Part shown: positions 3,312-59,476 of the stretch, piece by piece
Position numbering within the stretch: position 1 is the first letter of the stretch
Layout of the letters: each line of letters opens with the position of its first letter
IMG/VR virus record: IMGVR_UViG_3300024255_001088
Origin: a virus
Length of the DNA: 64,000 nucleotides
Strand: one strand, 5' to 3'
Program-made: the position numbers and the translations under genes
Notes under the pieces: generated by a model
The model's database searches: none
Told to the model about the DNA's origin: nothing
What the model saw: the letters and a program-made list of their open reading frames with translations, nothing else

Positions 3312-4901
3312 ATGTCAGACGATATTTTTATAAAACATGATAAGAATGGTGGAACTTTTCAGCAACCCTTTTTAGCCAGAGTACCTGCAACCGGTCAACA
3401 ACCGAATATCGCACAAAGAATTTATCAGGTTACTACTCAAGGAACACAACCATTTACATATCAAAGTAGAACACCTACAAATGTTCAGACGCCTAGTAAT
3501 GCACAAAATCCAATAATTGCTCAAGGTATCGCACAAACAACTTATCAACATAGGTCGCCTGCTATATACACAAGTAGGGCGCCTTCAATATACAATATTC
3601 AAACACCTTCTACATATCAACATAGAAGTCCTTTGATATATCAACATAGGTCACCGTTTACTTATCAGTTAAATTATCAACATAGAGAACCTTCTACATA
3701 TCAACATAGAAGTCCTTTGATATATCGTACACCGACTCAGACTAGAACGCCTAGCATCTATACAAATAGACAACCTTTAACATATGAACATAGAAGTCCT
3801 TTTACATATGACCACAGAAGTCCTTTAACATATGACCACAGAAGTCCTTCTCGAACACCTTCTACATATCAAAATAGACAACCTTTAATATATGACCATA
3901 GGTCGCCTTATCAAAGTCCGTTTACTTATCAACATAGAAGTCCGTTGATATATGACCATAGGTCGCCTTCTACATACGATAATAGAGAACCTAGTATCTA
4001 TCAACATAGAAGTCCAGACACTTATCAGCATCAATCGCCGAGTACTTATCAGCATAGGTCACCGTCTCAGAGTCCGTTTACATACGACCATAGGTCACCA
4101 TTTACATATGACCATAGGTCACCGTCTCAGAGTCCGTTTACATACGACCATAGGTCACCATTTACATATGACCATAGGTCGCCTTATCAAAGTCCGTTTA
4201 CATACGACCATAGGTCACCATTTACATATGACCATAGGTCACCATTTACAACTCCAGTAATTGTTAATACACAAAGCTCAAGAAATGCACGAACACCGTT
4301 TATCTTTAGTGAATTACAACAGCAAAACATTGGTACTACGACTGCTCCATATGCTGAAGTTCATTGTGAGATGTCACTTATAGATTCTAGCGGTCGAGAA
4401 CCTTGGATTGTATTATATTGTGTTGAATCAAGTAATGATGTTAATGTATATGTTTATGCTTCAGCTGATGCATTTGGACTTCCTGATGCATATCTGAAAG
4501 AAACAAATACCGGCGGTACTCAAAATGGTCAGGATCAAAACATTGAAGAAAATAGTGATGTTCTTCTATACAAAATAGACGATGCTGGAACTAATTATTC
4601 TGTTGCTAGAAGTACCTCTACTCATGGTACCTTCAATGAGGGTACTCTGAGCGGAAACATTTCTGGAGGCACTGCAATAACTAGCACTTCTTGGACTTAT
4701 GGTACAACTAATGGTACTTTTACCAAGTGGAAATGTGATAATGCTAACTCTGGAGATGTTAAGGAGTACGAGACAACTAATACATTTACATTTACAAGTC
4801 CAGATGCTAATATGGGAACTCATACAATAACGCTAAAAGTGAATCTGTATTACGAAAACGAACAACCAGAAGAAGATGAAGAAGAAAATGACCAGGAGTA
4901 A
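3312..4901 (+). CDS. Zipper chain A1: xTYxHRSP repeat protein with a ~200-aa C-terminal domain
   Basis: Residues 20-329 are Pro-delimited repeats; residues 330-529 are non-repetitive with an acidic tail. Confidence 0.85.
   Translation: MSDDIFIKHDKNGGTFQQPFLARVPATGQQPNIAQRIYQVTTQGTQPFTYQSRTPTNVQTPSNAQNPIIAQGIAQTTYQHRSPAIYTSRAPSIYNIQTPSTYQHRSPLIYQHRSPFTYQLNYQHREPSTYQHRSPLIYRTPTQTRTPSIYTNRQPLTYEHRSPFTYDHRSPLTYDHRSPSRTPSTYQNRQPLIYDHRSPYQSPFTYQHRSPLIYDHRSPSTYDNREPSIYQHRSPDTYQHQSPSTYQHRSPSQSPFTYDHRSPFTYDHRSPSQSPFTYDHRSPFTYDHRSPYQSPFTYDHRSPFTYDHRSPFTTPVIVNTQSSRNARTPFIFSELQQQNIGTTTAPYAEVHCEMSLIDSSGREPWIVLYCVESSNDVNVYVYASADAFGLPDAYLKETNTGGTQNGQDQNIEENSDVLLYKIDDAGTNYSVARSTSTHGTFNEGTLSGNISGGTAITSTSWTYGTTNGTFTKWKCDNANSGDVKEYETTNTFTFTSPDANMGTHTITLKVNLYYENEQPEEDEEENDQE
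3369..4298 (+). repeat. Coding repeat array (HRSP type), 310 codons
   Basis: Units of even length (4-16 aa); near-perfect 60-bp tandem copies at ~4050-4250. Confidence 0.95.
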
Positions 4902-4907
4902 TGTGAT

Positions 4908-6002
4908 ATGCCAGTAGGACAACAACCATCCATATACCAACATCCTATTGCTACACAGGCGCAACAACCAGCGCAACAACCTAATATTAGAAACAAACAA
5001 CACCCTGTTATTAGAAACAAACAGGAAAGTAATCAAGAACCTAATATTAGAAACAAACAACACCCTGTTATTAGAAACAAACAGGAAAGTAATCAAAATC
5101 CTGTTATTAGAAACAAACAAGAACCTAATATTAGAAGCAAACAGGAAAGTAATCAAAATCCTGTTATTAGAAACAAACAACATCCGTTTATTAGAGACAG
5201 ACAAAATCCGGTTGAAAGAGCTCATCAAACTCCTTATACTGCAAATAAACAAAATCCTGTTATTAGAGACCAACAGGTGCCTAGTATAAGAAACGCCCAA
5301 CAGAATGCTCAAGAACCTAATATTAGAAGCGCTCAAAGTCCTTACATCGCAGATGCACAAGCGAATACGCAGAATCCTTTTATTAGAAATCAACAAGAAC
5401 CTAATATTAGAAGCAAACAGGAATCTGTTATAAGAAACAAACAGTCTGCTTATCAAGCGAGTAAACAAACTCCTTCTATAACAAGAACACCAGCGAGTCA
5501 ACAAGAACCTAATATTAGAAGCGCACAAACACCTTCTATTAGACAAGCGCTTAAAAATAAACAACAACCTAATATTAGAAGTCAACAAGAACCTAATATT
5601 AGAAATAAGAGAACACCTTCAGCACATAACGCACAATATCTTAATACTCACAATAGACAAGACCCTGTTATTAGAAGACAACCATTTACATATCCTTTCT
5701 CATATAGAAGTCCTTCTACTTACAGACATCCTACTATTGGTCAACAACCATATATTGCACAAGGTCAGGCTTCTTATAGTTTTCAACAAAACAGACAACA
5801 ACCATATGGATTCAGGTCTCCGTTTATATTTCAAGCAACAGAGAACTCTAATCGACCAATAACGCCAGTTGCAAAAGTGAAAGGAGTCTTTATAAAAGAT
5901 AGTGATGGTGTTGTAAAAGCTTCAACTAAAGTCTTTGTTAAGAAAGATAGTTCAACAGTTGAGAAAATTCATCAGGTACCTGCTTTGCCGTTTGACGAAT
6001 AG
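4908..6002 (+). CDS. Zipper chain B1: xIRxxQxP repeat protein
   Basis: Residues 8-317 are repeats mirroring A1; C-terminal 'VFIKDSDG...VFVKKD' hairpin motifs. Confidence 0.85.
   Translation: MPVGQQPSIYQHPIATQAQQPAQQPNIRNKQHPVIRNKQESNQEPNIRNKQHPVIRNKQESNQNPVIRNKQEPNIRSKQESNQNPVIRNKQHPFIRDRQNPVERAHQTPYTANKQNPVIRDQQVPSIRNAQQNAQEPNIRSAQSPYIADAQANTQNPFIRNQQEPNIRSKQESVIRNKQSAYQASKQTPSITRTPASQQEPNIRSAQTPSIRQALKNKQQPNIRSQQEPNIRNKRTPSAHNAQYLNTHNRQDPVIRRQPFTYPFSYRSPSTYRHPTIGQQPYIAQGQASYSFQQNRQQPYGFRSPFIFQATENSNRPITPVAKVKGVFIKDSDGVVKASTKVFVKKDSSTVEKIHQVPALPFDE
4929..5858 (+). repeat. Coding repeat array (EPNIR type), 310 codons
   Basis: Near-perfect 60-bp tandem copies at ~4975-5180. Confidence 0.95.
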
Positions 6003-6019: not shown

Positions 6020-6352
6020 ATGGCTATAATCGCAAATTTATTTATCGACCAGGGAACAGACTTTACAGTTGCTGTAGATGTTTCCGATGCAACAGGAAGC
6101 GTTTTAAATCTCTCTGGTTATTCATCAGCAGGACAAATAAGAAAGACATACGGTTCTTCAACCATATCTGCCACATTTGCTACCAGTAATGAGAACGCTA
6201 CAGGTAAAGTGACATTATCTTTGACTGATACTCAAACATCAGCATTAGAACCTGGAAGATATGTGTATGATATGAACATAACAAGTGCTGGTGGTATAAC
6301 AACAAGAGTTGTAGAAGGTCAAGCAATAGTCACACCAGGAGTAACCAGATAA
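6020..6352 (+). CDS. Small virion structural/adaptor protein
   Basis: 'IDQGTDF...GRYVYD...RVVEG...VTPGVT' pattern typical of marine T4-like fibre regions. Confidence 0.6.
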   Translation: MAIIANLFIDQGTDFTVAVDVSDATGSVLNLSGYSSAGQIRKTYGSSTISATFATSNENATGKVTLSLTDTQTSALEPGRYVYDMNITSAGGITTRVVEGQAIVTPGVTR

Positions 6353-13386: not shown

Positions 13387-15489
13387 ATGGCGACAGGCTC
13401 ACAAAAGGTAAAAACACCAACAGGTTGGAATAGTACCCGAGGTGCATGGGTAAAAACAGACTCAGGCACATGGAAAGCTGCTGACCAGATTTATGTAAAA
13501 ACACCTACAGGTTGGAACAATGCTTCTGGACAACAGAGTGTTCAACAACCTTACCCTTATATCGCAAACGCACAAGAACCCAATATAAGAAACAAACAGA
13601 ATCCTTATCCTTATATTGCAAACGCACAAGAACCTAATATAAGAAACAAACAGAATCCTTATCCTTATATTGCTAATGCACAAGAACCTAATATTAGAGA
13701 TAGAAGACAACCTGCGATTTATCAAAATCCAGTAAATGCACAAGAACCTAATATTAGAAATCAACAAGAACCTAATATTAGGTCACAACAAGAACCTAAT
13801 ATTAGAGATGCTAGACAACCTGGTACATATCAACATAGGTCACCTAGTACATATAGAGACCCTCGTTCATATCAGAATCCTTCTACATATAATCATAGAA
13901 GTCCGTTGACATATCAACATAGAAGTCCGTTGACATATCAACATAGGTCACCATTTATATATCAACATAGGTCACCTTCTACATATAGTAATAGACAACC
14001 TAGTACATATCAACATAGGTCGCCTTATAGAAGTCCGTTTATCTATCAACATAGAAGTCCGTTGACATATGACCACAGGTCTCCTTTAATATATCGTAAT
14101 CCGTTTACTTATAATCACAGGTCTCCTTTAACATATGACCATAGGTCACCTTATCAAAGTCCATTTACTTACGACCATAGAAGTCCGTTGACATATCAAC
14201 ATAGGTCACCTTATAGAAGTCCGTTCACTTATCAACATAGAAGTCCGTTGACTTATCAACATCAGTCACCGAGTATTTACCAGAATCCAAGTACCTATCA
14301 GAACAGACAACCTAGTACTTATCAGCATCAGTCGCCAAGTATTTACCAGAATCCTAGTACTTACGACAATAGACAACCTAGTAGTTATCAGCATCAGTCG
14401 CCAAGTATTTACCAGAATCCGAGTACTTACAACAATAGACAACCTGGTACATATGACCATAGGTCACCTTATAGAAGTCCGTTCACTTATCAACATAGGT
14501 CACCATTTACATATGACCATAGGTCGCCGTTTACATATCGTAATCCGTTTACTTATAACCATAGGTCGCCTACTACATATAATCACAGGTCACCATATAC
14601 ATATGACCATAGGTCGCCTAGTACATACAATCACAGGTCACCTAGTACATATCAGGCAAGACAACCTAACGCTGCTAGAAACCCATTTAGTGCAAGACAA
14701 CCGTTCACTTATCAGGCAAGAGAACCTAATACATATAATCATAGGTCGCCTAGTACATACCAAGCAAGACAACCGAATAGTGCTAGACAACCATTTAGTG
14801 CGAGACAACCGTTCACTTATCAGGCAAGACAACCAAACTCTGCTAGAAACCCATTTAGTGGAAGAAATCCTTTCACTTATCAGGCAAGGTCGCCTTCGAT
14901 TGCAAACAATAGGTCTCCTGCAACTTATTCATTCAGAATGCCGTTTACCTTTGGTGGTGGAGGAGGAGGCGGAGGTTGCTTCGCTCCAGGTTCAATGATA
15001 TGGTTAGGCGATGGTTCACATGCACCTATCGAGTCATGTGTTGTTGGTCAATGGGTCATGTCTTGGAACGAAAGTACTAAATTACTTGAACCTAAGAGAA
15101 TACAACAAATTAATCCTCAGCCAATCAGTTCTATATGGGATATAACATTCTCAGATGGTAGAATTCTACAGATGACTGATACTCACCCATTGATGTTACC
15201 AAATGGTGAATGGGGTGCATTTGATATTGAGAAATCAGTAAAAGAACATTGGTGGATGGAAGATATAGAAACACATGAACTTAAAGTTGGAGATAGTATA
15301 TTCAGTATGTTAGATGGCATAATGTTTGATAGACAAGATGAAATGGGACTAGAGATAGTATCAATAGAAGAACACTCAGAAATGGAAGTTTATAACTTAA
15401 CTGGTATTGAAGATAACTCGAACTTCTTTGTTAATGGCATGTTAGCACATAACTTTAACAATCTACCTATTCCTGTAGGACAAAAATAA
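13387..15489 (+). CDS. Zipper chain A2: repeat protein with Gly8 linker and C-terminal Hint domain
   Basis: Three 'VKT..(.)G.W'-type motifs, 464-aa repeat array, G8, then a Hint domain. Confidence 0.85.
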   Translation: MATGSQKVKTPTGWNSTRGAWVKTDSGTWKAADQIYVKTPTGWNNASGQQSVQQPYPYIANAQEPNIRNKQNPYPYIANAQEPNIRNKQNPYPYIANAQEPNIRDRRQPAIYQNPVNAQEPNIRNQQEPNIRSQQEPNIRDARQPGTYQHRSPSTYRDPRSYQNPSTYNHRSPLTYQHRSPLTYQHRSPFIYQHRSPSTYSNRQPSTYQHRSPYRSPFIYQHRSPLTYDHRSPLIYRNPFTYNHRSPLTYDHRSPYQSPFTYDHRSPLTYQHRSPYRSPFTYQHRSPLTYQHQSPSIYQNPSTYQNRQPSTYQHQSPSIYQNPSTYDNRQPSSYQHQSPSIYQNPSTYNNRQPGTYDHRSPYRSPFTYQHRSPFTYDHRSPFTYRNPFTYNHRSPTTYNHRSPYTYDHRSPSTYNHRSPSTYQARQPNAARNPFSARQPFTYQAREPNTYNHRSPSTYQARQPNSARQPFSARQPFTYQARQPNSARNPFSGRNPFTYQARSPSIANNRSPATYSFRMPFTFGGGGGGGGCFAPGSMIWLGDGSHAPIESCVVGQWVMSWNESTKLLEPKRIQQINPQPISSIWDITFSDGRILQMTDTHPLMLPNGEWGAFDIEKSVKEHWWMEDIETHELKVGDSIFSMLDGIMFDRQDEMGLEIVSIEEHSEMEVYNLTGIEDNSNFFVNGMLAHNFNNLPIPVGQK
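13552..14943 (+). repeat. Coding repeat array (short EPNIR part, then long HRSP part), 464 codons
   Basis: 63 units of 4/6/8/10 aa. Confidence 0.95.
14977..15453 (+). other. Hint (intein-like/BIL) autoprocessing domain
   Basis: Block A CFAPGS, block B TDTHP, block F VYNL, block G NFFVNGMLAHN; +1 residue is Phe; no endonuclease. Confidence 0.9.
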
Positions 15490-15529: not shown

Positions 15530-16996
15530 ATGCCACAGCAACCTCTAATTGGACTTGCTCAATCGCCAAGTACTTCTAATGTGCAAACTCCGTATATTGC
15601 TAATGGCCAGCAACCTTATACTGGTCAACAACCATATACATATCAGTCGCCATATATTGCATCTGGTCAGACTCCTTATACTGGTCAGACTCCTTATACT
15701 TACCAGAGTCCTTATATTGCGAATAATCAACAACCCAATATTAGAAGTTATCAAAGTCCGTATATTGCGAATGGTCAGACTCCTTATACTGGTCAACAAC
15801 CTTATACTTTCCAGAGTCCATACATTGCGAATAATCAAGAACCTAATATAAGGAACAATCAGGAACCCAATATTAGAAGCATACAAGAACCTAATATTAG
15901 AAACCAACAAGAACCTAATATTAGAGATGCTCAGTCACCTAGTAATGCTCAGCAACCTACAATTAAGAACAAACAAGAACCTAATATTCGTTCAGCGCAA
16001 CAGTCAGCACAAGAACCAAATATCAGAAACTTTCAGACTCCTTACATTGCTAATGCACAAGGGGCTAGTGCAGCTCAAGAACCTAATATCAGAAATGCAC
16101 AAACACCTTATATTGCAAACAGACAAAACACTGCAAATGCACAAGAACCTAATATTAGAAACAGACAAACACCTTATATTGCAAACAGACAAACCACTTC
16201 AAATGCACAAGAACCAAACATAAGGTCACAACAAGAACCTAATATTCGTTCAGCGCAAGCGTCAGCACAAGAACCAAACATAAGGTCACAACAAGAACCT
16301 AATATTAGAAACAAACAGCAGAGTGCTCAACAACCTACTATTAAGAACCAACAGGAACCTAATATTAGAGATGCTCAGTCACCTAGTAATGCTCAGCAAC
16401 CTAATATTAGAAGTCAACAAGAACCTAATATTCGTTCAGGTCAAACGGTAACGCAAGAACCTAATATTAGAGACAGACAAACACCTTATATTGCTAATGC
16501 ACAAAATCCGTTTATTAGAAATGCTCAAGAACCAAACATAAGGTCACAACAAGAACCTAATATTAGAGCTCAACAAGAACCTAATATTAGAAACAGACAA
16601 ACAACAGCGAGCTATCAGAATCCTGTAAATGCTCAGAATCCGTTTATAAGAAATAATCAGACTCCATTTACATATGACCATAGAAGTCCGTTGACATATG
16701 ACCACAGGTCTCCTTTAACATATGACCATAGAAGTCCGTTTACTTACAGAAATCCTGCAAATAGTCAGACACCTCTTACATATCAACATCAGAGTCCTTC
16801 TACATATGCTAGACAAGGTCAAACACCAACGACTTATCAACATAGAAGTCCTTCTACATATGCTAGACAAGGTCAGACACCAACGACTTATCAACATAGG
16901 TCACCTAGTACATATGCTAGACAAGGTCAAACACCTGTTATCCGTTGGGATGGTTCATTGTCACAAACATGGCCAGGAACACCTGTTAATTCTTAA
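15530..16996 (+). CDS. Zipper chain B2: repeat protein (long EPNIR/YIAN part, then short HRSP part)
   Basis: 5 aa + 464-aa array + 19 aa; SD GGGAG. Confidence 0.85.
   Translation: MPQQPLIGLAQSPSTSNVQTPYIANGQQPYTGQQPYTYQSPYIASGQTPYTGQTPYTYQSPYIANNQQPNIRSYQSPYIANGQTPYTGQQPYTFQSPYIANNQEPNIRNNQEPNIRSIQEPNIRNQQEPNIRDAQSPSNAQQPTIKNKQEPNIRSAQQSAQEPNIRNFQTPYIANAQGASAAQEPNIRNAQTPYIANRQNTANAQEPNIRNRQTPYIANRQTTSNAQEPNIRSQQEPNIRSAQASAQEPNIRSQQEPNIRNKQQSAQQPTIKNQQEPNIRDAQSPSNAQQPNIRSQQEPNIRSGQTVTQEPNIRDRQTPYIANAQNPFIRNAQEPNIRSQQEPNIRAQQEPNIRNRQTTASYQNPVNAQNPFIRNNQTPFTYDHRSPLTYDHRSPLTYDHRSPFTYRNPANSQTPLTYQHQSPSTYARQGQTPTTYQHRSPSTYARQGQTPTTYQHRSPSTYARQGQTPVIRWDGSLSQTWPGTPVNS
15545..16936 (+). repeat. Coding repeat array mirroring 13552-14943, 464 codons
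   Basis: 63 units whose lengths are the reverse of those in A2. Confidence 0.95.
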
Positions 16997-52476: not shown

Positions 52477-52511
52477 AGCCCCCATGAAAGTCTATTTGTA
52501 TAAATAACTGT

Positions 52512-52808
52512 ATGGAAGAGATTTTTAATCTAATAGGTGAAGTGGGTGCTCCAATTGCTGGTTCAGTAATCATGGGGTTCTTCATATTCATAGTTATTAA
52601 ACAGATACTTGAGGGTGTAGTTGATTCTATTTCCACACTTACAATGTTCTGTAAATCTTTAGAAAATCGAGCAAGAACAATGTCTAATGAAATGATTAAG
52701 ATAGATTTACTTGTATCAAGTGCTTTAGAACTAAGACCAGACATAGAGCGAATTGCAAGAGCTGAAAACTTCATAGAAGATGATAAGCTCGATGTCAGAA
52801 GAGACTAA
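52512..52808 (+). CDS. Small membrane protein at the head of the curli-like operon
   Basis: 'I.EVG.PIA...MG.FI' TM segment; similar to the next gene. Confidence 0.65.
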   Translation: MEEIFNLIGEVGAPIAGSVIMGFFIFIVIKQILEGVVDSISTLTMFCKSLENRARTMSNEMIKIDLLVSSALELRPDIERIARAENFIEDDKLDVRRD

Positions 52809-53062
52809 TGGACATTGCACAATTAATTTCCGATTTCGGATTTCCCATTGTGATGGCAGTAGGACTCGGTTACTTCATATATTACATTTGGTGGTTTGTA
52901 GGTGAAAAACTAGAACCCGAAATTGAAAAAATGCACTTTCAATTAATTAAAGTAATAGACCAAACAAGAATGTTAGACCAAGATTTGATACGACTACAAC
53001 AAAAAGTAGATGTAGTTTTAGAAATGAAAGAAAACATTAAAAAGAAAGAGGTGAAGAAGTAA
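52808..53062 (+). CDS. Small membrane protein
   Basis: 'I.DFGFPIV.A.G.GYFI' TM segment plus coiled coil. Confidence 0.65.
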   Translation: MDIAQLISDFGFPIVMAVGLGYFIYYIWWFVGEKLEPEIEKMHFQLIKVIDQTRMLDQDLIRLQQKVDVVLEMKENIKKKEVKK

Positions 53063-53542
53063 ATGAAATTATTATTATCATTTTTAGTTATAATTTTCAG
53101 TATGGGTGTTCATGCTGATATAAAACACAAATTTAAGAACCCTAGTTTCAGTGGAATAGGTACAGCATCACATTACCTAACCGTTGAGAACCAAGAGTTC
53201 ACAAGAAAAAAAGAAATAGAAGATGCACTTGAATCTGCTAGAAAGGCAGCTGAAAGGGCAGAAGACAATACAACCATGGCTAAATTTATTCGGAATCTAG
53301 AATCACGAATTTATGCACAAATGGCTAAACAATTAGTTGAGTCTATGTTTTCGAATGACGGTTCAGTTAGATTTGGTTCATTCAGTTTAGAAGGCAATGT
53401 TGTCACATATGAAGTGATAACTAATGAAGATGGTTCAGAATTTATACGAATGACAATTGTTGATTCCGATGGAACAGAAACAATTTTAGAAATACCAATC
53501 GGAACAGGAAACTTTGGGCAAGACTCAGATGGAACTGGTTAA
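53063..53542 (+). CDS. csgF: Curli assembly component CsgF-like
   Basis: Signal peptide then 'FKNPSFSG', 'F...LESRI.AQ', 'T.LEIP'; directly upstream of csgG. Confidence 0.8.
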   Translation: MKLLLSFLVIIFSMGVHADIKHKFKNPSFSGIGTASHYLTVENQEFTRKKEIEDALESARKAAERAEDNTTMAKFIRNLESRIYAQMAKQLVESMFSNDGSVRFGSFSLEGNVVTYEVITNEDGSEFIRMTIVDSDGTETILEIPIGTGNFGQDSDGTG

Positions 53543-54497
53543 ATATTTACTCACCGGCGTAATTTTACTATCTGGATGTGCATCTGTTCCAAAGTGGTCA
53601 GACAACCCAGCAGATTGTGCCTATGAGACAGGAAGATTTGATGAGGGTTTCGGTAGAGATGTTGTCACAGGTGTAGCAAAGGCCTGGTCTAGAAATTACA
53701 TATGTGTAGAGAATGCTACTGTAATTAATCTACCTTCACATTTAGAACTACTGAATTTGCCTAAGGCAAAAGATAGACCTACTGTTGCAGTTTATAACTT
53801 TGTGGACAAAACAGGACAGAGAAAATCAGAAGATAACCTTGCATCATTCTCTACTGCTGTGACACAAGGTGCAACCGAAATGGTTATTGATGCACTTAAA
53901 ACGGCAGGTAAAGGAACATGGTTCAGAGTTGTTGAAAGACATGGCATAGACAACTTGGTAAGAGAGAGACAAATTATTCGTTCTGCTAGACAAGACTTTG
54001 CTAAACAACAAGGCGAAGAGAAGTTTCAAAATTTACAACCCTTACTATTCGCAGGTATGATAATAGAGGGTGGTATAATAGGTTATGATTCCAATTTATT
54101 AACTGGTGGTCGAGGCGCAAGGACCCTAGGAATTGGAGTTAGTAGACAGTATCGTCAAGATGCTGTCACGGTTAGTATGAGAGCTGTTTCAGTTCTAACA
54201 GGCGAAGTATTATTGAATGTCCAAACAAGAAAGACTATCCTTTCTTATGGTTCAGGCGGCGATGTATTCCGATTCATTGAAGAAGGAACACAATTGCTAG
54301 AGTTCGAGGACGGAGTGGGTAATAATGAGTCAGTGACATATGCAGTACGAACAGCTATCGAGGCTGCCGTACTGGAATTAATCTACCAAGGACATGATAG
54401 GGGTTTTTGGAAAATCGAGGAAAATCATAGACACCCACACAATAGTGATGGTGTAAATGATTTACACTCATTAAAAGGAGAAGAAGAAAATGAATAA
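53529..54497 (+). CDS. csgG: Curli secretion channel CsgG-like lipoprotein
   Basis: Lipobox LSGC, 'VAVY.F.DKTGQRK', 'FSTAVTQG', 'WF.VVER....L..ERQIIR', 'EGGIIGYD'. Confidence 0.92.
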   Translation: MELVKYLLTGVILLSGCASVPKWSDNPADCAYETGRFDEGFGRDVVTGVAKAWSRNYICVENATVINLPSHLELLNLPKAKDRPTVAVYNFVDKTGQRKSEDNLASFSTAVTQGATEMVIDALKTAGKGTWFRVVERHGIDNLVRERQIIRSARQDFAKQQGEEKFQNLQPLLFAGMIIEGGIIGYDSNLLTGGRGARTLGIGVSRQYRQDAVTVSMRAVSVLTGEVLLNVQTRKTILSYGSGGDVFRFIEEGTQLLEFEDGVGNNESVTYAVRTAIEAAVLELIYQGHDRGFWKIEENHRHPHNSDGVNDLHSLKGEEENE

Positions 54498-55224
54498 AAT
54501 TTTAAGTATTTTATTACTAATGTCGACACCATTCGTTTTCGCAGCTGCAACTGATGATAATGAGATTATGATTACACAAGTTGGTGATACTCTAAAATTA
54601 TATGTTGACCAAGTTGGTTTTGGTAACAAAGTAGGACTAAACGACTTTTCAAGTGGTTCTGGTTCAAACATGACCATTACTGGTGTGACTTTGGATTTCA
54701 ACATAGATATGATAGGTAACAAGAACTTGTTATTCGGACCTCTCGTTGCCGATACATCTAACTATACTTTATTGATGACTGGTGATTCTAACTCTATTGA
54801 CTGGAACATAGGTTCTACAGGTAGTTCAGACGATTCAGATATCAATTTCAACATGACCGGCGATTCGAATACATTCGATATCGAACAAGGTGCTGTTGCA
54901 AGTGCAGAGAGATTAAATGCGGATTTAGTTCTTGTTGGTAGTAGTAATGTTTTTGATATTGATTGGGAAGCAGATGATGTCACATGGAATTTCGATGTGA
55001 CTGGTTCTAGTTCTAATTTCAACACATTGCAGAAAGATGGTTCACAAACACTTAATTTTGATTTTACAGGAGACAGCGCTGATGTTGATATCACTCAGAT
55101 ATCAGGCACATGTGCAGCTTCTGGTAATGGGTGTGCAACACCTAATGCAAATGTCAATCTTAATGTAAACAGTGACAATGCGATTATTCAGATTACACAA
55201 AAAGATTCAGCTGGCGACAGTTAG
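54490..55224 (+). CDS. Secreted curlin-like beta-solenoid protein
   Basis: Signal peptide; 'N...I.Q.G' and 'G.SN' repeats. Confidence 0.65.
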   Translation: MNKILSILLLMSTPFVFAAATDDNEIMITQVGDTLKLYVDQVGFGNKVGLNDFSSGSGSNMTITGVTLDFNIDMIGNKNLLFGPLVADTSNYTLLMTGDSNSIDWNIGSTGSSDDSDINFNMTGDSNTFDIEQGAVASAERLNADLVLVGSSNVFDIDWEADDVTWNFDVTGSSSNFNTLQKDGSQTLNFDFTGDSADVDITQISGTCAASGNGCATPNANVNLNVNSDNAIIQITQKDSAGDS

Positions 55225-56329
55225 TTTCTTTTTACTATTCGCTAGTGGGGTCAGTTCTGCTGAACCCATTGGCGGTGTAATTGAATCTACAGGTGTCACA
55301 TCTGTAAAAAGAGAGCAGGACAGAATTCTAACAGATGTCGGTACAGACATCAACATGTATGATGAAGCAGAGACTGCCAATGGTCGTATGCTCATACAAT
55401 TTTTAGATAATGAAAAATTGAGTTTAACAGAAAACTCACTCGTTTACATAGACGAGGCATATTACGACCCCGACCCAAGTTTATCCAAAATGTCAATACG
55501 AATGGCACGAGGCACAGCACGATTCGCCTCGGGTGGTGGTTCAAGAATTAAAAAACAAAATGTAGATGTATCTACTCCTACAGCCAATATCACAATGAGA
55601 GGGACAGATTTTACAACCACCATTGATGAGTTGGGAAGGACTATGGTAATCTTACTTCCGGATGAAGAGACAGGTGAATCATCTGGAGAAATACTAGTTT
55701 ATAATGACGGTGGTGAAACCGTTTTAAATCAACCATATCAGGCAACTACTGTTGCATCGTATGATTCACCACCAACTACAGCAGTCACGGTTCAAGGTAT
55801 TACGCCGAATCTGATTGACAATATGTTTATCGTAAATCCACCTTCGGAAATACGACAAGCGATGGAAGAATCCTATCAAGATGAAAATTATGATGACCAG
55901 GGTTTATTAGATGTAGACTTCTTAGAGTTCAATGAACTTGAGGGAGATGCTCTGGCCGATACGACTGAAGATTTATCATTTTCAGAGTTGGACATAGATT
56001 ATTTGGATGTGGATTTTTTACAAGACTTATTAGATGTTATAGAAGAATTAGAGAAAACCACGGTATCGTTAGATTCCAAAGGTGGTTCAAGTACTGAATT
56101 AGCTGGGTTTGCACTTAAAGGTGCATCACCAGGTTTCAACAAAGATTCTCAGTTTAATGTTTTCGAACAAGACGGAGACCTAGTTTTCTTTCGTGATGTC
56201 CAAGGAGTCATAAATATAATTATAACAAGTGGTGGTTCGGGCATTGTAGATGCCGAAGTTCCAGGATACTCAGGTGTCATGACATTTGGAGATGGAGATG
56301 GAATTACAATTGTTATACGACAAGATTAA
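55178..56329 (+). CDS. Secreted FecR-domain protein
   Basis: Signal peptide; 'T.NG...I.F.D...L.L.ENS', 'G.ARF.SG', 'TPTA.I..RGTDF'. Confidence 0.8.
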   Translation: MRLFRLHKKIQLATVSFFLLFASGVSSAEPIGGVIESTGVTSVKREQDRILTDVGTDINMYDEAETANGRMLIQFLDNEKLSLTENSLVYIDEAYYDPDPSLSKMSIRMARGTARFASGGGSRIKKQNVDVSTPTANITMRGTDFTTTIDELGRTMVILLPDEETGESSGEILVYNDGGETVLNQPYQATTVASYDSPPTTAVTVQGITPNLIDNMFIVNPPSEIRQAMEESYQDENYDDQGLLDVDFLEFNELEGDALADTTEDLSFSELDIDYLDVDFLQDLLDVIEELEKTTVSLDSKGGSSTELAGFALKGASPGFNKDSQFNVFEQDGDLVFFRDVQGVINIIITSGGSGIVDAEVPGYSGVMTFGDGDGITIVIRQD

Positions 56330-56339
56330 GGAGAGATTT

Positions 56340-56495
56340 ATGAGCATAAATATTGACTTTACTAAACTAAGACAATGGCATGAAAACCTAACATGGGAAG
56401 TTGCCGACTATTTTGGTTTAGATGAATATGAAATGTTATGGGTGTCATACACCGAGGGATTAATTTTAGGATTATTATTATGGTGGATTTTTTAA
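56340..56495 (+). CDS. Small membrane protein
   Basis: SD GGAG before ATG 56340; hydrophobic C-terminus. Confidence 0.5.
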   Translation: MSINIDFTKLRQWHENLTWEVADYFGLDEYEMLWVSYTEGLILGLLLWWIF

Positions 56496-57142
56496 AAAGA
56501 ACATTTATTGTAGGGGCATTTATTCTGATAAGTGGCCTTACTTTTGCTGACGACAATCATGTCCATGTTGAACAAGTATCTAGTGGAGATAACTTAGATT
56601 TAAACATAACACAAATAGGTTATGATAACGAAGTAAACTTCACTGTATCTCATTCTGGTAATGTATTCAACTTAATTCAAAACGGTAATGGAAACTATAT
56701 TGGTTGGGTATCCTTTTGGGGTTCAGGTAAAGCATGGGGTGGTGATATTGATGGAACAGATAATACTGAAAACATAGAACAATGGAATGGTGCAACATAT
56801 GGCCGTCACATATGGGGAAATAATAATGAAGTAGATGTCTATCAGAATGGTTCACATACTCATTGGTTAGATATACATATAGATGATGCTGACCATAATG
56901 CACATCAATCTGGAACAGGAAGTCATTACGCACATACATATTACTATGGTACTCAAGACGGTTCTGTTGCTAGCATTATGCAGAAAGATACAGGAAGTCA
57001 TAACGCACAAATAACACTTACAGGTAGTCAACCAACAACACTTAATTTATTACAACAAGGCGCAACCAATAAGTCTTACAATCTAACTCAAAATTGTATG
57101 ACTGTTGGAGGGTGTACAGTATCGGTGACTCAAAGTGACTGA
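56480..57142 (+). CDS. Second secreted curlin-like protein
   Basis: Signal peptide; 'Q.G..N' and 'Q.G..SH.A' repeats; start uncertain. Confidence 0.65.
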   Translation: MVDFLKRTFIVGAFILISGLTFADDNHVHVEQVSSGDNLDLNITQIGYDNEVNFTVSHSGNVFNLIQNGNGNYIGWVSFWGSGKAWGGDIDGTDNTENIEQWNGATYGRHIWGNNNEVDVYQNGSHTHWLDIHIDDADHNAHQSGTGSHYAHTYYYGTQDGSVASIMQKDTGSHNAQITLTGSQPTTLNLLQQGATNKSYNLTQNCMTVGGCTVSVTQSD

Positions 57143-57392
57143 ATGTCCACCAGAGTTTAATGAATGTCTCACCGAAGAAGAATACGATGAGATTTTAGAC
57201 ATCTTTGAAGAGAATGAAATCGCAATGCCTGAGGCACTAGGCGATGTAGAAGCTGCATCTGATTTTGTCTGGCAAGTTCTTTTTCTCACACCAATAGAAC
57301 TAGTTTACATAGGTTTTACAATGACTGTTCTCGCTACTTACGGACTGTCTATATACTATATCTATAAAAAAATACAGAAGAAATTTTCATAA
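57135..57392 (+). CDS. Small membrane protein
   Basis: Acidic N-terminus, hydrophobic C-terminus. Confidence 0.55.
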   Translation: MTECPPEFNECLTEEEYDEILDIFEENEIAMPEALGDVEAASDFVWQVLFLTPIELVYIGFTMTVLATYGLSIYYIYKKIQKKFS

Positions 57393-57574
57393 TGAACGAA
57401 GCGAATCCATTTTCAAAAAAATCAAGAGAAAGGACCATCGCAATGGTTAACGAATATCGTAAAAAGAAAAAACAACAGTGGTGGTCAAGTTTCTGGTCAA
57501 CAGTTCTTGCAATTGCACTCATTGGTGTTTGTCTATACATATTCTTTTTTGCGTGGCCTACAATTGAACAGTGA
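57392..57574 (+). CDS. Small membrane protein
   Basis: Basic stretch followed by a TM helix. Confidence 0.55.
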   Translation: MNEANPFSKKSRERTIAMVNEYRKKKKQQWWSSFWSTVLAIALIGVCLYIFFFAWPTIEQ

Positions 57575-57637
57575 TACTCAACAGATATCGAAAGTATCGA
57601 CTTATCGAGTGGAAGAAAGGTAATCTCGTAGATATCT

Positions 57638-59476
57638 ATGTATAGTTGGAAAACAGTTTTAATAACCATAGTCGCCCTTGTGGGTATAAAGATATGGTCA
57701 CCCTATCTAATAGATAATGTTAGATGGTCTTACTTCGATGTTCTACATCAACAAAAAGAAAATGTGATAGTAGATAACATACTACTGGTCAACATAGATG
57801 AAAAGGCAATAGAGAAGTACGGTCAGTATCCTTTTCCTAGAAATGTGTATGCAGATACATTATGGGAAACACATCACTCAAACACTCATGTATTCAATAT
57901 ACTATTCGCAGAAGAAGATAGATTCGGTGGTGATGAAGTCTTTGCAGAGGCACTAGAAAACAGATTAACGATATTATCATCAGCACCAACAATTCAAAAA
58001 GAATCAGGCAACGCACCATTCGTAAACACCTCAGTATTTGGCGATGGTGATATACAAGACCATGTGTGGAATTTTCCAGGTTTAGTATCGCCAATCCCGG
58101 AACTACAAAACAGTGCTTGGGGTATGGGCGTGACAGTTGCCACACCACCTGTGGCGAATACCCCAAATTTTGACGGAACAAACAGAGCGGTTCCGCTAGT
58201 CATCCAGGCAAATGGTCAATTATATCCAAGTTTAGGATTCGAAGTTCTCAGAGCATACTATGACCAACCCAATTATCAAACTAGGGTAACTGCTGATGCA
58301 GGTATTGAATGGGTTAAAATGGGAAGAGACAAACCAATAGAGACCACATCAAGTGCAGACTTGATGATTTCGTATTGGAACGAATTCGAATCTATCTCAT
58401 TTGCAGACTTGCAAGATTCTGATATAGAAGGAAAGATTCTAGTCTATGGACTAACCGCTGAGGGGTTATCTATTCCAGTTTCAACCCCAATGGGTGTAAT
58501 GTATCCTCACGAAGTTCAAGCACACCTAATCCAAACCGTCTCGTCAGGAGTTCAAATACATGTATCCGAGACTCTTGAAATGCTCGAGACTTTTCTTCTT
58601 CTGTTAGTCCTTCTAGGAATACTGGTATCGGTCTACAAACTTCCCACAGCCTTCTCGGCGATAGTCTCTGTAGGGTTCGTTTTACTTCAGGTGGGGTTAA
58701 GTCACTATTTGTGGTTTTACAATCTCGTTCTTTTCGATATCTTCTGGTCATCGTTAAGCTCCGTTGTTGTTTTCGGACACGCTTCTTTTAACCAATACTA
58801 TACTACTTACCAACTCAAAGAACAAATTAAGAAGCAGTTCCAAAAGTATTTATCTCCTGACATGATTGAAGAACTACAAAAAGACCCAAGTAAACTTAGA
58901 CTTGGCGGAGATAGAAGAGAGATGACTTTCATGTTTATGGACATAATCGGATTCACTCCCATAAGCGAACACTATATGCAGAAAGATGATCCAGAAGGTT
59001 TAGTAGAACTCATTAATAAGTTTTTAGATATGCAAACTAAAATCATACTAAATAATAGTGGAACCATAGATAAGTATATGGGGGATTGCATAATGAGTTT
59101 TTGGAATGCACCACTTGATTGTGAAAACCACGCAGACCTTGCCGTAAAGTCAGCACTAGAAGTTTTAGATGCTACAAAGGAATTAAATGAAGAACTTAAA
59201 CCTCTTAACCTGCCTCCTATTAATGTGGGCATCGGTATCAGTTCAGGCGAATGTATTGTCGGAAACATGGGTTCCGAACTTAGATTCGACTATTCCGTCA
59301 TCGGAGATGCCGTCAACTTGGGCGCTAGACTCGAAGGACAAACAAGAAATTATAATGGGGTTGACTTGTTGTTATCGGAAAGAACTTATCAACTATGTCC
59401 AGACAGAGCATTCACTAGAGTTGATAGAATTACAGTTAAAGGAAAATCAGAACAGGTTACAATTTACACTTGTTGA
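57638..59476 (+). CDS. CHASE2-domain class III adenylate cyclase
   Basis: CHASE2 ('IDEK....YGQYPFPR', 'F.E.DR'), three TM helices, 'FMDIIGFT', 'IDKYMGDCIM', 'DYSVIGDAVNLGARLE'. Confidence 0.92.
   Translation: MYSWKTVLITIVALVGIKIWSPYLIDNVRWSYFDVLHQQKENVIVDNILLVNIDEKAIEKYGQYPFPRNVYADTLWETHHSNTHVFNILFAEEDRFGGDEVFAEALENRLTILSSAPTIQKESGNAPFVNTSVFGDGDIQDHVWNFPGLVSPIPELQNSAWGMGVTVATPPVANTPNFDGTNRAVPLVIQANGQLYPSLGFEVLRAYYDQPNYQTRVTADAGIEWVKMGRDKPIETTSSADLMISYWNEFESISFADLQDSDIEGKILVYGLTAEGLSIPVSTPMGVMYPHEVQAHLIQTVSSGVQIHVSETLEMLETFLLLLVLLGILVSVYKLPTAFSAIVSVGFVLLQVGLSHYLWFYNLVLFDIFWSSLSSVVVFGHASFNQYYTTYQLKEQIKKQFQKYLSPDMIEELQKDPSKLRLGGDRREMTFMFMDIIGFTPISEHYMQKDDPEGLVELINKFLDMQTKIILNNSGTIDKYMGDCIMSFWNAPLDCENHADLAVKSALEVLDATKELNEELKPLNLPPINVGIGISSGECIVGNMGSELRFDYSVIGDAVNLGARLEGQTRNYNGVDLLLSERTYQLCPDRAFTRVDRITVKGKSEQVTIYTC

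What the first reader, a model, noticed from the sequence alone, without database searches (positions are those of the whole stretch)
3312..6002. Peptide-level 'reverse-complement' gene pair 1: 310-residue mirror register
Seen: reading A1 (aa 20-329) backwards and B1 (aa 8-317) forwards gives the same block lengths: 14,4,8,8,4,8,8,4,8,8,4,8x6,4,8,8,4,8x4,6,6,8,12,8x4,16,6,6,8,16,12, totalling 310 aa each. Irregular blocks also match, e.g. FTYQLNYQHREP opposite SIRQALKNKQQP. All 18 His-containing octamers face an xxR octamer, and all 3 Asn octamers face YxA. Caveat: some boundaries lack Pro in one chain and were set from the summed Pro-to-Pro distance. Inference: the two products form an antiparallel two-chain ribbon, at most about 100 nm if fully extended at ~3.3 A per residue.
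Basis: partly seen in the sequence, partly recalled or inferred. Interest (0 to 1): 0.9.

Follow-up and report, generated by a model that had tools for sequence, protein, structure and literature searches.

The report
Mirror-coded two-protein phage fibre
Two neighbouring genes of an uncultured marine T4-like phage encode proline-punctuated repeat proteins that are unit-by-unit complements when one is read backwards, which points to a long two-protein antiparallel fibre held in register by a pairing code that I could not find described.

Summary
A1 (3312-4901) read backwards and B1 (4908-6002) read forwards have the same proline spacing over 310 residues (register a+b=336). 31 of 35 B1 prolines coincide, against 12.9±2.2 (max 21) for block-shuffled A1. 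Parallel and non-cognate alignments look like the null.

There is no nucleotide-level reverse complementarity. A facing-residue matrix trained only on 30 pair-2-type gene pairs from other genomes scores A1xB1 at 286 bits in that one register. Shuffled A1 gives 73±14, parallel 24, and A1xB2 or A2xB1 at most 97 bits.

About 40 length classes of related pairs (a+b from 205 to 576, one with reversed gene order) obey the rule. Covariation lies almost only between even positions. Unit lengths are almost all even.

Best reading: an obligate antiparallel, in-register A1:B1 assembly, most likely an extended beta-ladder shaft of a host-recognition fibre. The proximal clasp is conserved and the distal tip variable. 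Stoichiometry and 3D structure are not shown, because the structure predictions gave nothing usable.

No Pfam, PHROG, PDB or literature match was found. The scan has already noted this family on other genomes and on this one.

The parts
3312..4901 (+). Gene A1, 529 aa: short N-terminal motif (aa 1-18), repeat array (aa 19-329), C-terminal all-beta domain (aa 330-529)
   Evidence: ORF list and Pro-block listing. No Pfam, PHROG or PDB sequence match.
3366..4298 (+). A1 repeat array, aa 19-329: mainly Y-type units (P-x-T-Y-x-H-R-S) with 4-, 6-, 12- and 16-residue units interspersed
   Evidence: AlphaFold2 on A1 alone gave pLDDT about 24 over the array, so no fold was predicted.
4299..4898 (+). 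A1 C-terminal domain, the putative distal tip. It is replaced by unrelated sequence in orthologue L006 and in other pair-1-type loci.
   Evidence: Alignment and C-termini. Only one homologous cluster among 5.8 billion proteins. The AF2 model is an all-beta domain of about 9 strands at low confidence, pLDDT 44. No fold match.
4908..6002 (+). Gene B1, 364 aa, starting 6 nt after the A1 stop with AGGAG 9 nt upstream of its ATG: array aa 7-317 and a conserved C-terminal motif region aa 318-364
   Evidence: No Pfam, PHROG or PDB match.
4926..5858 (+). B1 repeat array, aa 7-317: mainly N-type units (P-N-I-R-x-x-Q-x, or P-Y-I-A) that face the A1 array in register a+b=336
5859..5999 (+). B1 C-terminal region with two V-F-x-K/N-D..G motifs. 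It lies at the same end as the similar motif in the A1 N-terminus and is conserved across pair-1-type loci. Putative proximal clasp.
   Evidence: Termini listed and direct reading. The clasp role is inference.
13387..15489 (+). Gene A2, 700 aa: second chain pair of the same family. N-type units aa 55-144, then Y-type units aa 145-518, then Gly8-Cys and a Hint-like domain.
15530..16996 (+). Gene B2, 488 aa, partner of A2: N-type units aa 5-378, then Y-type units aa 379-468. Register a+b=524.
6020..6352 (+). Neighbouring gene, 110 aa, LtfC-like / 'L-shaped tail fiber protein assembly' family. This is context showing a tail-fibre module.
   Evidence: phrog_3304 E=2.2e-24. Pfam PF23926 E=0.004, below its cut-off.

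Best explanation
A1 and B1 are obligate partner chains of one fibrous assembly. They are made from adjacent, probably translationally coupled genes in the host-recognition (tail-fibre) cluster of an uncultured pelagimyophage-like T4-type phage.

The two arrays of 310 residues lie antiparallel and in one register, with A1 residue a opposite B1 residue 336-a. Each unit of 8, 6, 4 or 12 residues faces a unit of the same length and of the complementary type.

Each unit has two faces. The odd positions (Pro1, Thr/Ile3, Arg/Gln7) are nearly constant and would supply generic pairing. The even positions (2, 4, 6, 8) vary and co-vary across the chains:
- An aromatic at Y-type position 6 goes with Arg/Lys at N-type position 4.
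- When that aromatic is absent, N-type position 4 is Ala and N-type position 2 is Tyr.
- A large residue at Y-type position 2 goes with Ala/Gly at N-type position 6, and a small one with a long polar residue.

Together with the irregular punctuation by short units, these even positions set partner choice and register.

The most likely geometry is an extended antiparallel beta-ladder, a ribbon. The facing prolines would sit at non-hydrogen-bonded sites and block further sheet growth. That gives a thin shaft of up to about 100 nm.

The conserved end (A1 N-terminus plus B1 C-terminus) would attach to the virion. The variable end (A1 C-terminal domain plus B1 N-terminus) would carry the receptor-binding tip.

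Shown: the mirror register, the unit and residue code, its conservation and its specificity. Inferred: direct binding, beta geometry, length, polarity, and a role in the virion.
For: 1. Mirror register well above the null for both window pairs; parallel and cross pairs are at the null.

2. No DNA-level reverse complementarity. There were no minus-strand blastn hits for A1/B1. Ungapped identity at the register is 0.25, equal to the composition expectation. No long inverted repeats.

3. The rule recurs in about 50 distinct gene pairs from IMG/VR contigs, in 41 length classes. a+b runs from 205 to 576, and gene order is reversed in L011. In every complete pair the antiparallel count clearly exceeds the parallel one; the only exceptions in the table are a frameshifted locus (L030) and end-truncated ORFs. 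In Hint-bearing pairs lenA-lenB stays near 210 while lenB runs from 190 to 488.

4. Either chain can carry either unit type, and Y-type units always face N-type units: 606 of 643 unique facing octamer pairs.

5. Mutual information is concentrated on even positions. Y6 and Y8 against N2 and N4 give 0.77-0.86 bit, Y2-N6 gives 0.93 and Y2-N8 gives 0.56, with z of 25-74 against shuffles. Odd positions give about 0.1 bit or less. Size and charge complementarity is seen at Y2/N6: F with A/G, S/T with N/R/K/Q, D with R. Entropy is low at positions 1, 3 and 7 and high at 2, 6 and 8.

6. Cross-validated code. A matrix trained on 30 pair-2-type pairs, with the window excluded, gives A1xB1 286 bits over 286 aa at a+b=336 only. 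Block-shuffled A1 gives 73 +/- 14 (max 110), parallel gives 24, and A1xB2 and A2xB1 give 97 and 93 bits over at most 89 aa. Six other pair-1-type lineages score 134-355 bits antiparallel against at most 24 parallel.

7. Facing blocks are almost all of even length: 1955 of 2011 P/P-bounded blocks. This fits the two-residue period of a beta strand and does not fit 3-residue (PPII or collagen) or fixed-turn solenoid geometries.

8. Between orthologues, window against L001, changed A1 units face changed B1 units (Fisher p=4e-4). The divergence sits in two separate DNA troughs, 3900-4200 and 4950-5250, separated by a conserved stretch.

9. Context. The pair lies directly downstream of the VrlC-like gene among fibre-like genes and an LtfC-like gene. 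This is the 'host recognition cluster' of pelagimyophages (PMC7029224). The intergenic gap is 6 nt with an AGGAG, and many relatives have overlapping stop and start codons.
Against: There is no experimental or structural evidence of binding.

AlphaFold2 on A1 alone gave no confident structure (pLDDT 28). This is uninformative with a 5-sequence alignment.

Both arrays are net basic (+16 and +28), so there is no charge complementarity between the chains.

An isolated two-stranded ribbon 100 nm long has no known precedent and no buried core. The strong conservation of the odd face may mean that further copies or another partner pack against it.

A few related pairs show partial register breaks (for example L027, L048 and L054). 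These may be assembly errors in repeats, or real bulges.

Presence in virions is not shown.
Confidence: 0.7

Rival explanations
1. The antiparallel A:B pairing is the same, but the functional unit is a bundle of several duplexes, for example (AB)3 like the six-stranded needle of the T4 gp37 tip, or (AB)2 packed face to face. The constant odd face or the aromatic even face would then be buried between ribbons.
For: Known phage fibres are typically trimers (general knowledge), and the gp37 trimer builds a needle (PMC6957217). The odd-face residues are nearly invariant without covarying, as expected of a homotypic packing surface. Size complementarity at Y2/N6 suggests tight packing.
Against: Pro at every unit boundary on both chains would break the lateral hydrogen bonds needed in a closed barrel. 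Both faces carry bulky or charged residues (Arg, His, Tyr, Gln) that fit poorly in a core about 5 A in radius; this is geometric reasoning, not a test. There are no HxH metal motifs.
Confidence: 0.3
2. The two chains interleave as a two-start antiparallel beta-solenoid, with strands across the axis. This would give a short rod of about 12 nm rather than a 100 nm ribbon.
For: Any two-chain antiparallel fibre that advances at the same rate gives a+b=constant. Octapeptide periodicity is known from the T4 gp5 triple beta-helix (general knowledge).
Against: A solenoid needs a constant number of residues per turn. Here 8-, 6-, 4-, 2- and 12-residue units are mixed in ever-changing orders (8,8,4 / 8,8,6 / 8x6 / 6,6,8). 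N-type units have almost no hydrophobic residues to fill a core.
Confidence: 0.05
3. A1 and B1 do not touch each other. Both lie in opposite directions along a third polar or two-fold-symmetric partner, such as another fibre, a polysaccharide or nucleic acid, and that partner imposes matching unit lengths.
For: Both arrays are strongly basic, which would suit binding to a polyanion. The mirror spacing alone does not prove direct contact.
Against: The residue-level compensation between facing positions (F with A/G, D with R, an aromatic swapped between the chains) and the pair-specific code are what direct side-chain contact predicts. A common template would have to co-vary as well in every one of about 40 length classes.
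Confidence: 0.05
4. The mirror is a historical by-product with no physical meaning: an inverted DNA duplication, repeat-assembly artefacts, or chance in low-complexity sequence.
For: Both genes are repetitive and come from short-read metagenome assemblies.
Against: There is no nucleotide complementarity. The facing units are complementary rather than identical. The same architecture was assembled independently from seven or more samples. It exceeded every block-shuffle null. Lengths co-vary across lineages. Mis-assembly would break a mirror, not create one.
Confidence: 0.01

Closest known systems
Needle domain of the T4 long-tail-fibre tip, gp37 (PDB 2XGF; Bartual et al. 2010, recalled from my own knowledge; trimer with seven His-bound irons per PMC6957217)
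   Same: A long, thin phage fibre element built from extended strands that run out and back antiparallel. His residues lie on one face. It sits in a host-recognition fibre.
   Different: gp37 is one chain folding back on itself, in a homotrimer held by HxH-iron sites, and is about 15 nm long. Here the two arms are separate genes and are 300-500 residues long. They are punctuated by Pro, have no HxH motif, have no sequence match to any PDB chain, and carry a unit-level complementarity code.
Streptococcal antigen I/II (SpaP/SspB) stalk: the Ala-rich and Pro-rich repeat regions pair antiparallel
   Same: Two different repeat arrays with matched repeat numbers associate antiparallel to form a stalk about 50 nm long that presents a tip domain.
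   Different: That stalk is intramolecular and pairs an alpha-helix with a polyproline-II helix, using repeats of 82 and 39 residues. Here there are two chains, with even-numbered short units that fit beta geometry, and residue-level covariation.
Triple-stranded beta-helix of the T4 gp5 C-terminal domain (VxGxxxxx octapeptide; general knowledge)
   Same: An octapeptide period in a T4-type phage structural fibre.
   Different: gp5 is a parallel homotrimer with a constant period and Gly at the corners. Here there is no V-x-G motif, the unit lengths are mixed, and the relation is an antiparallel heteropair.
Heterodimeric coiled coils with pairing codes (leucine zippers, type I/II keratins; general knowledge)
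   Same: Partner choice and register are encoded in a periodic pattern. A constant core position is combined with variable specificity positions.
   Different: Those are alpha-helical heptads and mostly parallel. Pro every 8 residues and a Thr/Tyr/Ile-rich composition exclude helices here.

Membership tests
T4 gp37-type needle (2XGF) | A single chain folds back as a hairpin, with both arms in one polypeptide | tested here: not met
   The arms are two genes. No self-mirror chain was found among 250 family proteins; the best self-antiparallel fraction was 0.63, which comes from periodicity, and the two long candidates were unrelated perfect repeats.
T4 gp37-type needle (2XGF) | HxH motifs that coordinate iron along the axis | tested here: not met
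   There are 0 HxH motifs in either array.
T4 gp37-type needle (2XGF) | Sequence similarity to the solved chain | tested here: not met
   phmmer against all PDB chains found no match at E<=1 for A1 or B1.
T4 gp37-type needle (2XGF) | Trimeric six-stranded assembly | not testable with these tools
   The only complex job was a 1:1 run and gave no verdict. Stoichiometry needs experiment.
gp5-type triple beta-helix | Constant 8-residue period with a V-x-G corner motif, in a parallel homotrimer | tested here: not met
   Units of 8, 6, 4, 2 and 12 residues are mixed. There are 0 V-x-G motifs. The relation is antiparallel and heterotypic.
Collagen-like / polyproline-II fibres | A 3-residue period (G-x-y triplets, or unit lengths that are multiples of 3) | tested here: not met
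   There are no G-x-y runs. Facing blocks are 8, 6, 4 and 2 residues long, and 97% are even.
Phage tail-fibre / host-recognition module (generic) | Encoded in the fibre gene cluster of the structural region | tested here: met
   The pair lies between the VrlC-like gene (phrog_358) and other fibre-like genes (phrog_697, 17885, 19966) and an LtfC-like gene. This matches the host recognition cluster described in PMC7029224.
Phage tail-fibre / host-recognition module (generic) | The protein is present in the virion and binds the host | not testable with these tools
   No cultured phage carries the genes. HTVC008M, Melnitz and Mosig have no six-frame match, and there is no match in 50,697 GenBank phage records.
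Any curated protein family (Pfam, PHROGs) | A significant profile match | tested here: not met
   There are 0 families for A1 and B1 in Pfam and in PHROGs.

The most novel reading that the evidence does not exclude
A natural 'protein duplex': two polypeptides pair antiparallel over 300-500 residues through a modular code. A constant face zips, a variable face specifies, and unit-length punctuation fixes the register, so partner specificity, register and fibre length are written in sequence much as in a nucleic-acid duplex. The phage runs two orthogonal duplexes (A1:B1 and A2:B2) in the same cell without cross-pairing. Lineages retune fibre length by coordinated unit gain and loss in both genes.
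Probability: 0.6. Interest if true: 0.95.

Novelty: categorically new. Interest (0 to 1): 0.86.

Why it matters
If the two chains zip as inferred, this would be a fibrous-protein architecture without a described precedent: a heteromeric, sequence-addressed antiparallel beta duplex hundreds of residues long.

It would give protein designers a natural, readable pairing code for programmable, length-defined nanofibres, with orthogonal pairs.

It would show how abundant ocean phages, relatives of SAR11 and OM43 myophages, build very long thin host-sensing fibres.

It also poses an evolutionary problem: how matched insertions and deletions arise in two genes.

The claim is directly testable, because it predicts which residues face each other.

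Tried and rejected
Structure and complex prediction:
- Complex prediction on A1 251-314 plus B1 21-84 (1:1, no alignment) scored 0.00 against a mark of 0.34. That is no verdict, and I do not use it as evidence either way.
- AlphaFold2 on full A1 with 5 orthologues gave pLDDT 28, so there is no model of the array.
- AlphaFold2 on the A1 C-terminal domain gave pLDDT 44. Foldseek against the PDB found nothing at E<=0.001.
- The ESM Atlas feature search gave only a weak PKD/Ig-like lead at 0.76, below any useful level.

Homology and literature:
- Megablast and tblastn of the region, A1, B1 and A2 against 50,697 phage records found no relevant match. The only hits were chance-level low-complexity matches to mycobacteriophages and a Vibrio phage.
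- Full-text searches for the motifs and for two-chain antiparallel phage fibres found nothing relevant.

Other checks:
- I searched 250 family proteins for a single-chain, self-complementary hairpin version to fold as a monomer and found none. P0138 and P0172 were unrelated perfect repeats.
- The upstream VrlC-like protein was flagged by my Pro-spacing filter only because of a poly-Pro/(PV)n linker; it is not part of the system.
- The late-promoter consensus TATAAATA is not found directly upstream of A1, so the pair seems to be read through from upstream genes.
- Contigs from RNA-seq libraries of three studies lie on parts of both genes. DNA carry-over cannot be excluded, so I do not count this as proof of expression.
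- I first thought one recombination tract around the gene junction explained the co-located changes between orthologues. The DNA identity profile shows two separate troughs with a conserved stretch between them, so that explanation is weakened but not excluded.
- I considered that the chains read complementary DNA strands, TALE-like. I rejected this on unit size and on the direct side-chain compensation.
Full report
**Setting.** The window is part of an uncultured marine T4-like myovirus. Its major capsid protein is 66% identical to that of Methylophilales phage Melnitz and 65% to Pelagibacter phage HTVC008M. Typical T4-type structural and replication genes follow downstream.

The finding lies directly after a VrlC-like gene (phrog_358) and among fibre-like genes. 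An LtfC-like 'L-shaped tail fiber protein assembly' gene sits right behind B1. This is the position of the 'host recognition cluster' described for pelagimyophages, and that paper does not mention these repeat proteins (PMC7029224).

A1 (3312-4901, 529 aa) and B1 (4908-6002, 364 aa) are separated by 6 nt. An AGGAG lies 9 nt before the B1 start.

**The observation.** I scanned all offsets for coincident prolines:
- The best antiparallel register is a+b=336, with 31 of 35 B1 prolines coinciding.
- 500 shuffles of the A1 blocks give 12.9 +/- 2.2, max 21.
- The parallel orientation gives 21.
- The non-cognate combinations A1xB2 and A2xB1 give 18-19, which is the null level.

The second pair in the window is A2 (13387-15489) and B2 (15530-16996). 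It is perfect: all 56 B2 prolines face an A2 proline at a+b=524.

All facing blocks inside the arrays have even length.

**It is not a nucleotide phenomenon.** The reverse complement of the A1 array has no blastn match to the B1 array. Ungapped identity at the register is 0.25, the composition expectation. No long inverted repeats exist.

The facing units are not the same sequence mirrored. They are of two complementary kinds:
- Y-type units, P-x-T-Y-x-H-R-S and shorter relatives.
- N-type units, P-N-I-R-x-x-Q-x or P-Y-I-A-x-x-Q-x and shorter relatives.

**Independent replication.** Scans of IMG/VR with A1, B1 and A2 gave 87 loci. Of the 54 adjacent repeat-gene combinations listed in them, every complete pair has an antiparallel proline match well above the parallel one. 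The exceptions are a frameshifted locus (L030) and ORFs cut by a contig end. After filtering, 48 complete pairs from these loci, plus the two window pairs, fall into 41 distinct length classes with a+b from 205 to 576.

Block-shuffle nulls for five representatives were exceeded by wide margins. In L011 the gene order is reversed and the rule still holds.

In L010 and L011 both chains are mosaics of Y-type and N-type units, and every Y-type unit faces an N-type unit. Over all pairs, 606 of 643 unique facing octamer pairs are Y/N.

Protein lengths co-vary. In Hint-bearing pairs lenA-lenB stays near 210 while lenB runs from 190 to 488. A crude, partner-blind measure of array span correlates at r=0.84.

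**The code.** I took 560 unique Y/N octamer pairs and computed mutual information between positions.
- It is high only between even positions. Y6 and Y8 against N2 and N4 give 0.77-0.86 bit, Y2 against N6 gives 0.93, and Y2 against N8 gives 0.56. The z-scores are 25-74 against shuffles.
- Odd positions give about 0.1 bit or less.

The contingency tables show three rules:
- An aromatic at Y6 (His, Tyr or Phe) goes with Arg/Lys at N4.
- If Y6 is Ala, Asn or Arg, then N4 is Ala and N2 becomes Tyr.
- At Y2/N6, Phe pairs with Ala/Gly, Ser/Thr with Asn/Arg/Lys/Gln, and Asp with Arg.

Positions 1, 3 and 7 are nearly invariant in both unit types, while positions 2, 6 and 8 carry 2.4-2.9 bits of entropy. 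So each unit has a constant face and a code face. In the Pro-opposite-Pro register the coupled positions are exactly the direct (a+b=10) and diagonal (a+b=8) cross-strand neighbours of an antiparallel ladder.

**Specificity for this pair.** I trained a facing-residue log-odds matrix on 30 pair-2-type gene pairs from other genomes, with the window excluded.
- A1xB1 scores 269 bits over the full overlap at a+b=336. The next register, 328, scores 37, and the best parallel score is 2.
- A1xB2, A2xB1, A1xA1 and B1xB1 have no register above 9 bits.
- As local segments, A1xB1 gives 286 bits over 286 residues. Block-shuffled A1 gives 73 +/- 14 (max 110). The non-cognate pairs give 97 and 93 bits over at most 89 residues.

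The irregular punctuation by short units keeps non-cognate chains from staying in register.

Six further pair-1-type lineages share the A1-like N-terminal motif and the B1-like C-terminal motif. They score 134-355 bits antiparallel against at most 24 parallel.

**Polarity and evolution.** Among orthologues, the A1 N-terminal half and the B1 C-terminal half are almost invariant. The facing distal parts differ, and in L006 and other lineages the A1 C-terminal domain is replaced outright.

Changed A1 units face changed B1 units (Fisher p=4e-4 for L001, p=0.05 for L006). The DNA identity profile shows two separate troughs, 3900-4200 and 4950-5250, with a conserved stretch between them. A single replacement tract is therefore not the simple explanation.

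A conserved end and a variable end are what tail fibres show. I infer that the A1 N-terminus plus the B1 C-terminus attach to the virion, and that the A1 C-terminal domain plus the B1 N-terminus form the tip.

**Geometry.** This part is inference.
- Even unit lengths (97% of 2011 facing blocks), coupling confined to one parity, a Thr/Tyr/Ile/Pro-rich composition and Pro every 8 residues argue for beta strands.
- They argue against helices, against 3-residue PPII or collagen geometry, and against a solenoid with a fixed turn length.
- Facing prolines at non-hydrogen-bonded sites would be tolerated in a two-stranded ladder and would block edge-to-edge sheet growth (general principle of negative design).
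- At about 0.33 nm per residue, pair 1 would be about 100 nm long and pair 2 about 150 nm.
- Whether single duplexes or bundles of them form the fibre is open. The gp37 needle is a precedent for three hairpins (PMC6957217), and the invariant odd face could be a packing surface.

**What speaks against, and limits.**
- Nothing here shows binding physically.
- The single complex job gave no verdict, and AlphaFold2 gave no confident model of A1 or its C-terminal domain.
- Both arrays are net basic (+16 and +28).
- A few relatives show partial register breaks that may be assembly errors.
- Expression is not proven. RNA-library contigs lie on parts of both genes, but DNA carry-over is possible.

**Comparison and novelty.**
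- A1 and B1 match no Pfam or PHROG family and no PDB chain.
- The family numbers 144 clusters at 50% identity among 1.84 billion proteins, and 147 clusters at 90% identity in the near-length search. All are unnamed and from marine metagenomes.
- It is absent from 50,697 GenBank phage records and from HTVC008M, Melnitz and Mosig.
- Full-text searches found no description.

The closest analogues are the gp37 needle, the antigen I/II stalk, the gp5 beta-helix and coiled-coil zippers. Each shares one idea and fails the defining features I tested.

Earlier notes of this scan describe the same family on other genomes and on this one. They agree with my reading, but they are not independent evidence.

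Noticed in passing
window 13387-15489 (aa 519-700): A2 ends its array with Gly8-Cys followed by a Hint/intein-like domain (PF14890 E=2.5e-7, PF01079 E=2.8e-4, both below their gathering scores). In the mirror register this self-cleaving-type module sits next to the N-terminus of B2. Some relatives lack it and end in a short Pro-rich tail instead.
   Followed up: partly
window 52499-59476: A TATAAATA late-promoter-like box is followed by CsgF- and CsgG-like genes, two curlin-repeat-like ORFs and a CHASE2 adenylate cyclase. A curli cluster is already reported for pelagimyophages (PMC7029224). The cyclase link was not examined.
   Followed up: partly
window 6020-6352: A 110-aa ORF immediately after B1 matches 'L-shaped tail fiber protein assembly' (phrog_3304, E=2e-24) and, weakly, the Pfam LtfC-like domain. 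It could be a chaperone or adaptor for the A1:B1 fibre.
   Followed up: no
L005:1-3360 (orthologue of the gene ending at window 722): The VrlC-like protein carries a linker of about 70 residues of poly-Pro and (Pro-Val)n between its domains.
   Followed up: no
window 3366-4298 and 4926-5858: Both arrays are net basic (+16 and +28), contain no Cys, Trp or Met, and are rich in Gln/Asn (B1) or Tyr/His/Thr (A1). The duplex would be a strongly cationic thread.
   Followed up: partly
L027, L041, L048, L054 (related loci): In a few related pairs only part of the arrays stays in one register, and in L048 the A chain is about 88 residues too short for its partner. These may be repeat mis-assembly or natural bulges.
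   Followed up: no
window 4833-5588 (-) and 3952-4260 (+), 4948-5289 (+): Long open frames on the opposite strand and in other frames of the arrays are by-products of the 24-nt periodicity, not separate genes.
   Followed up: partly
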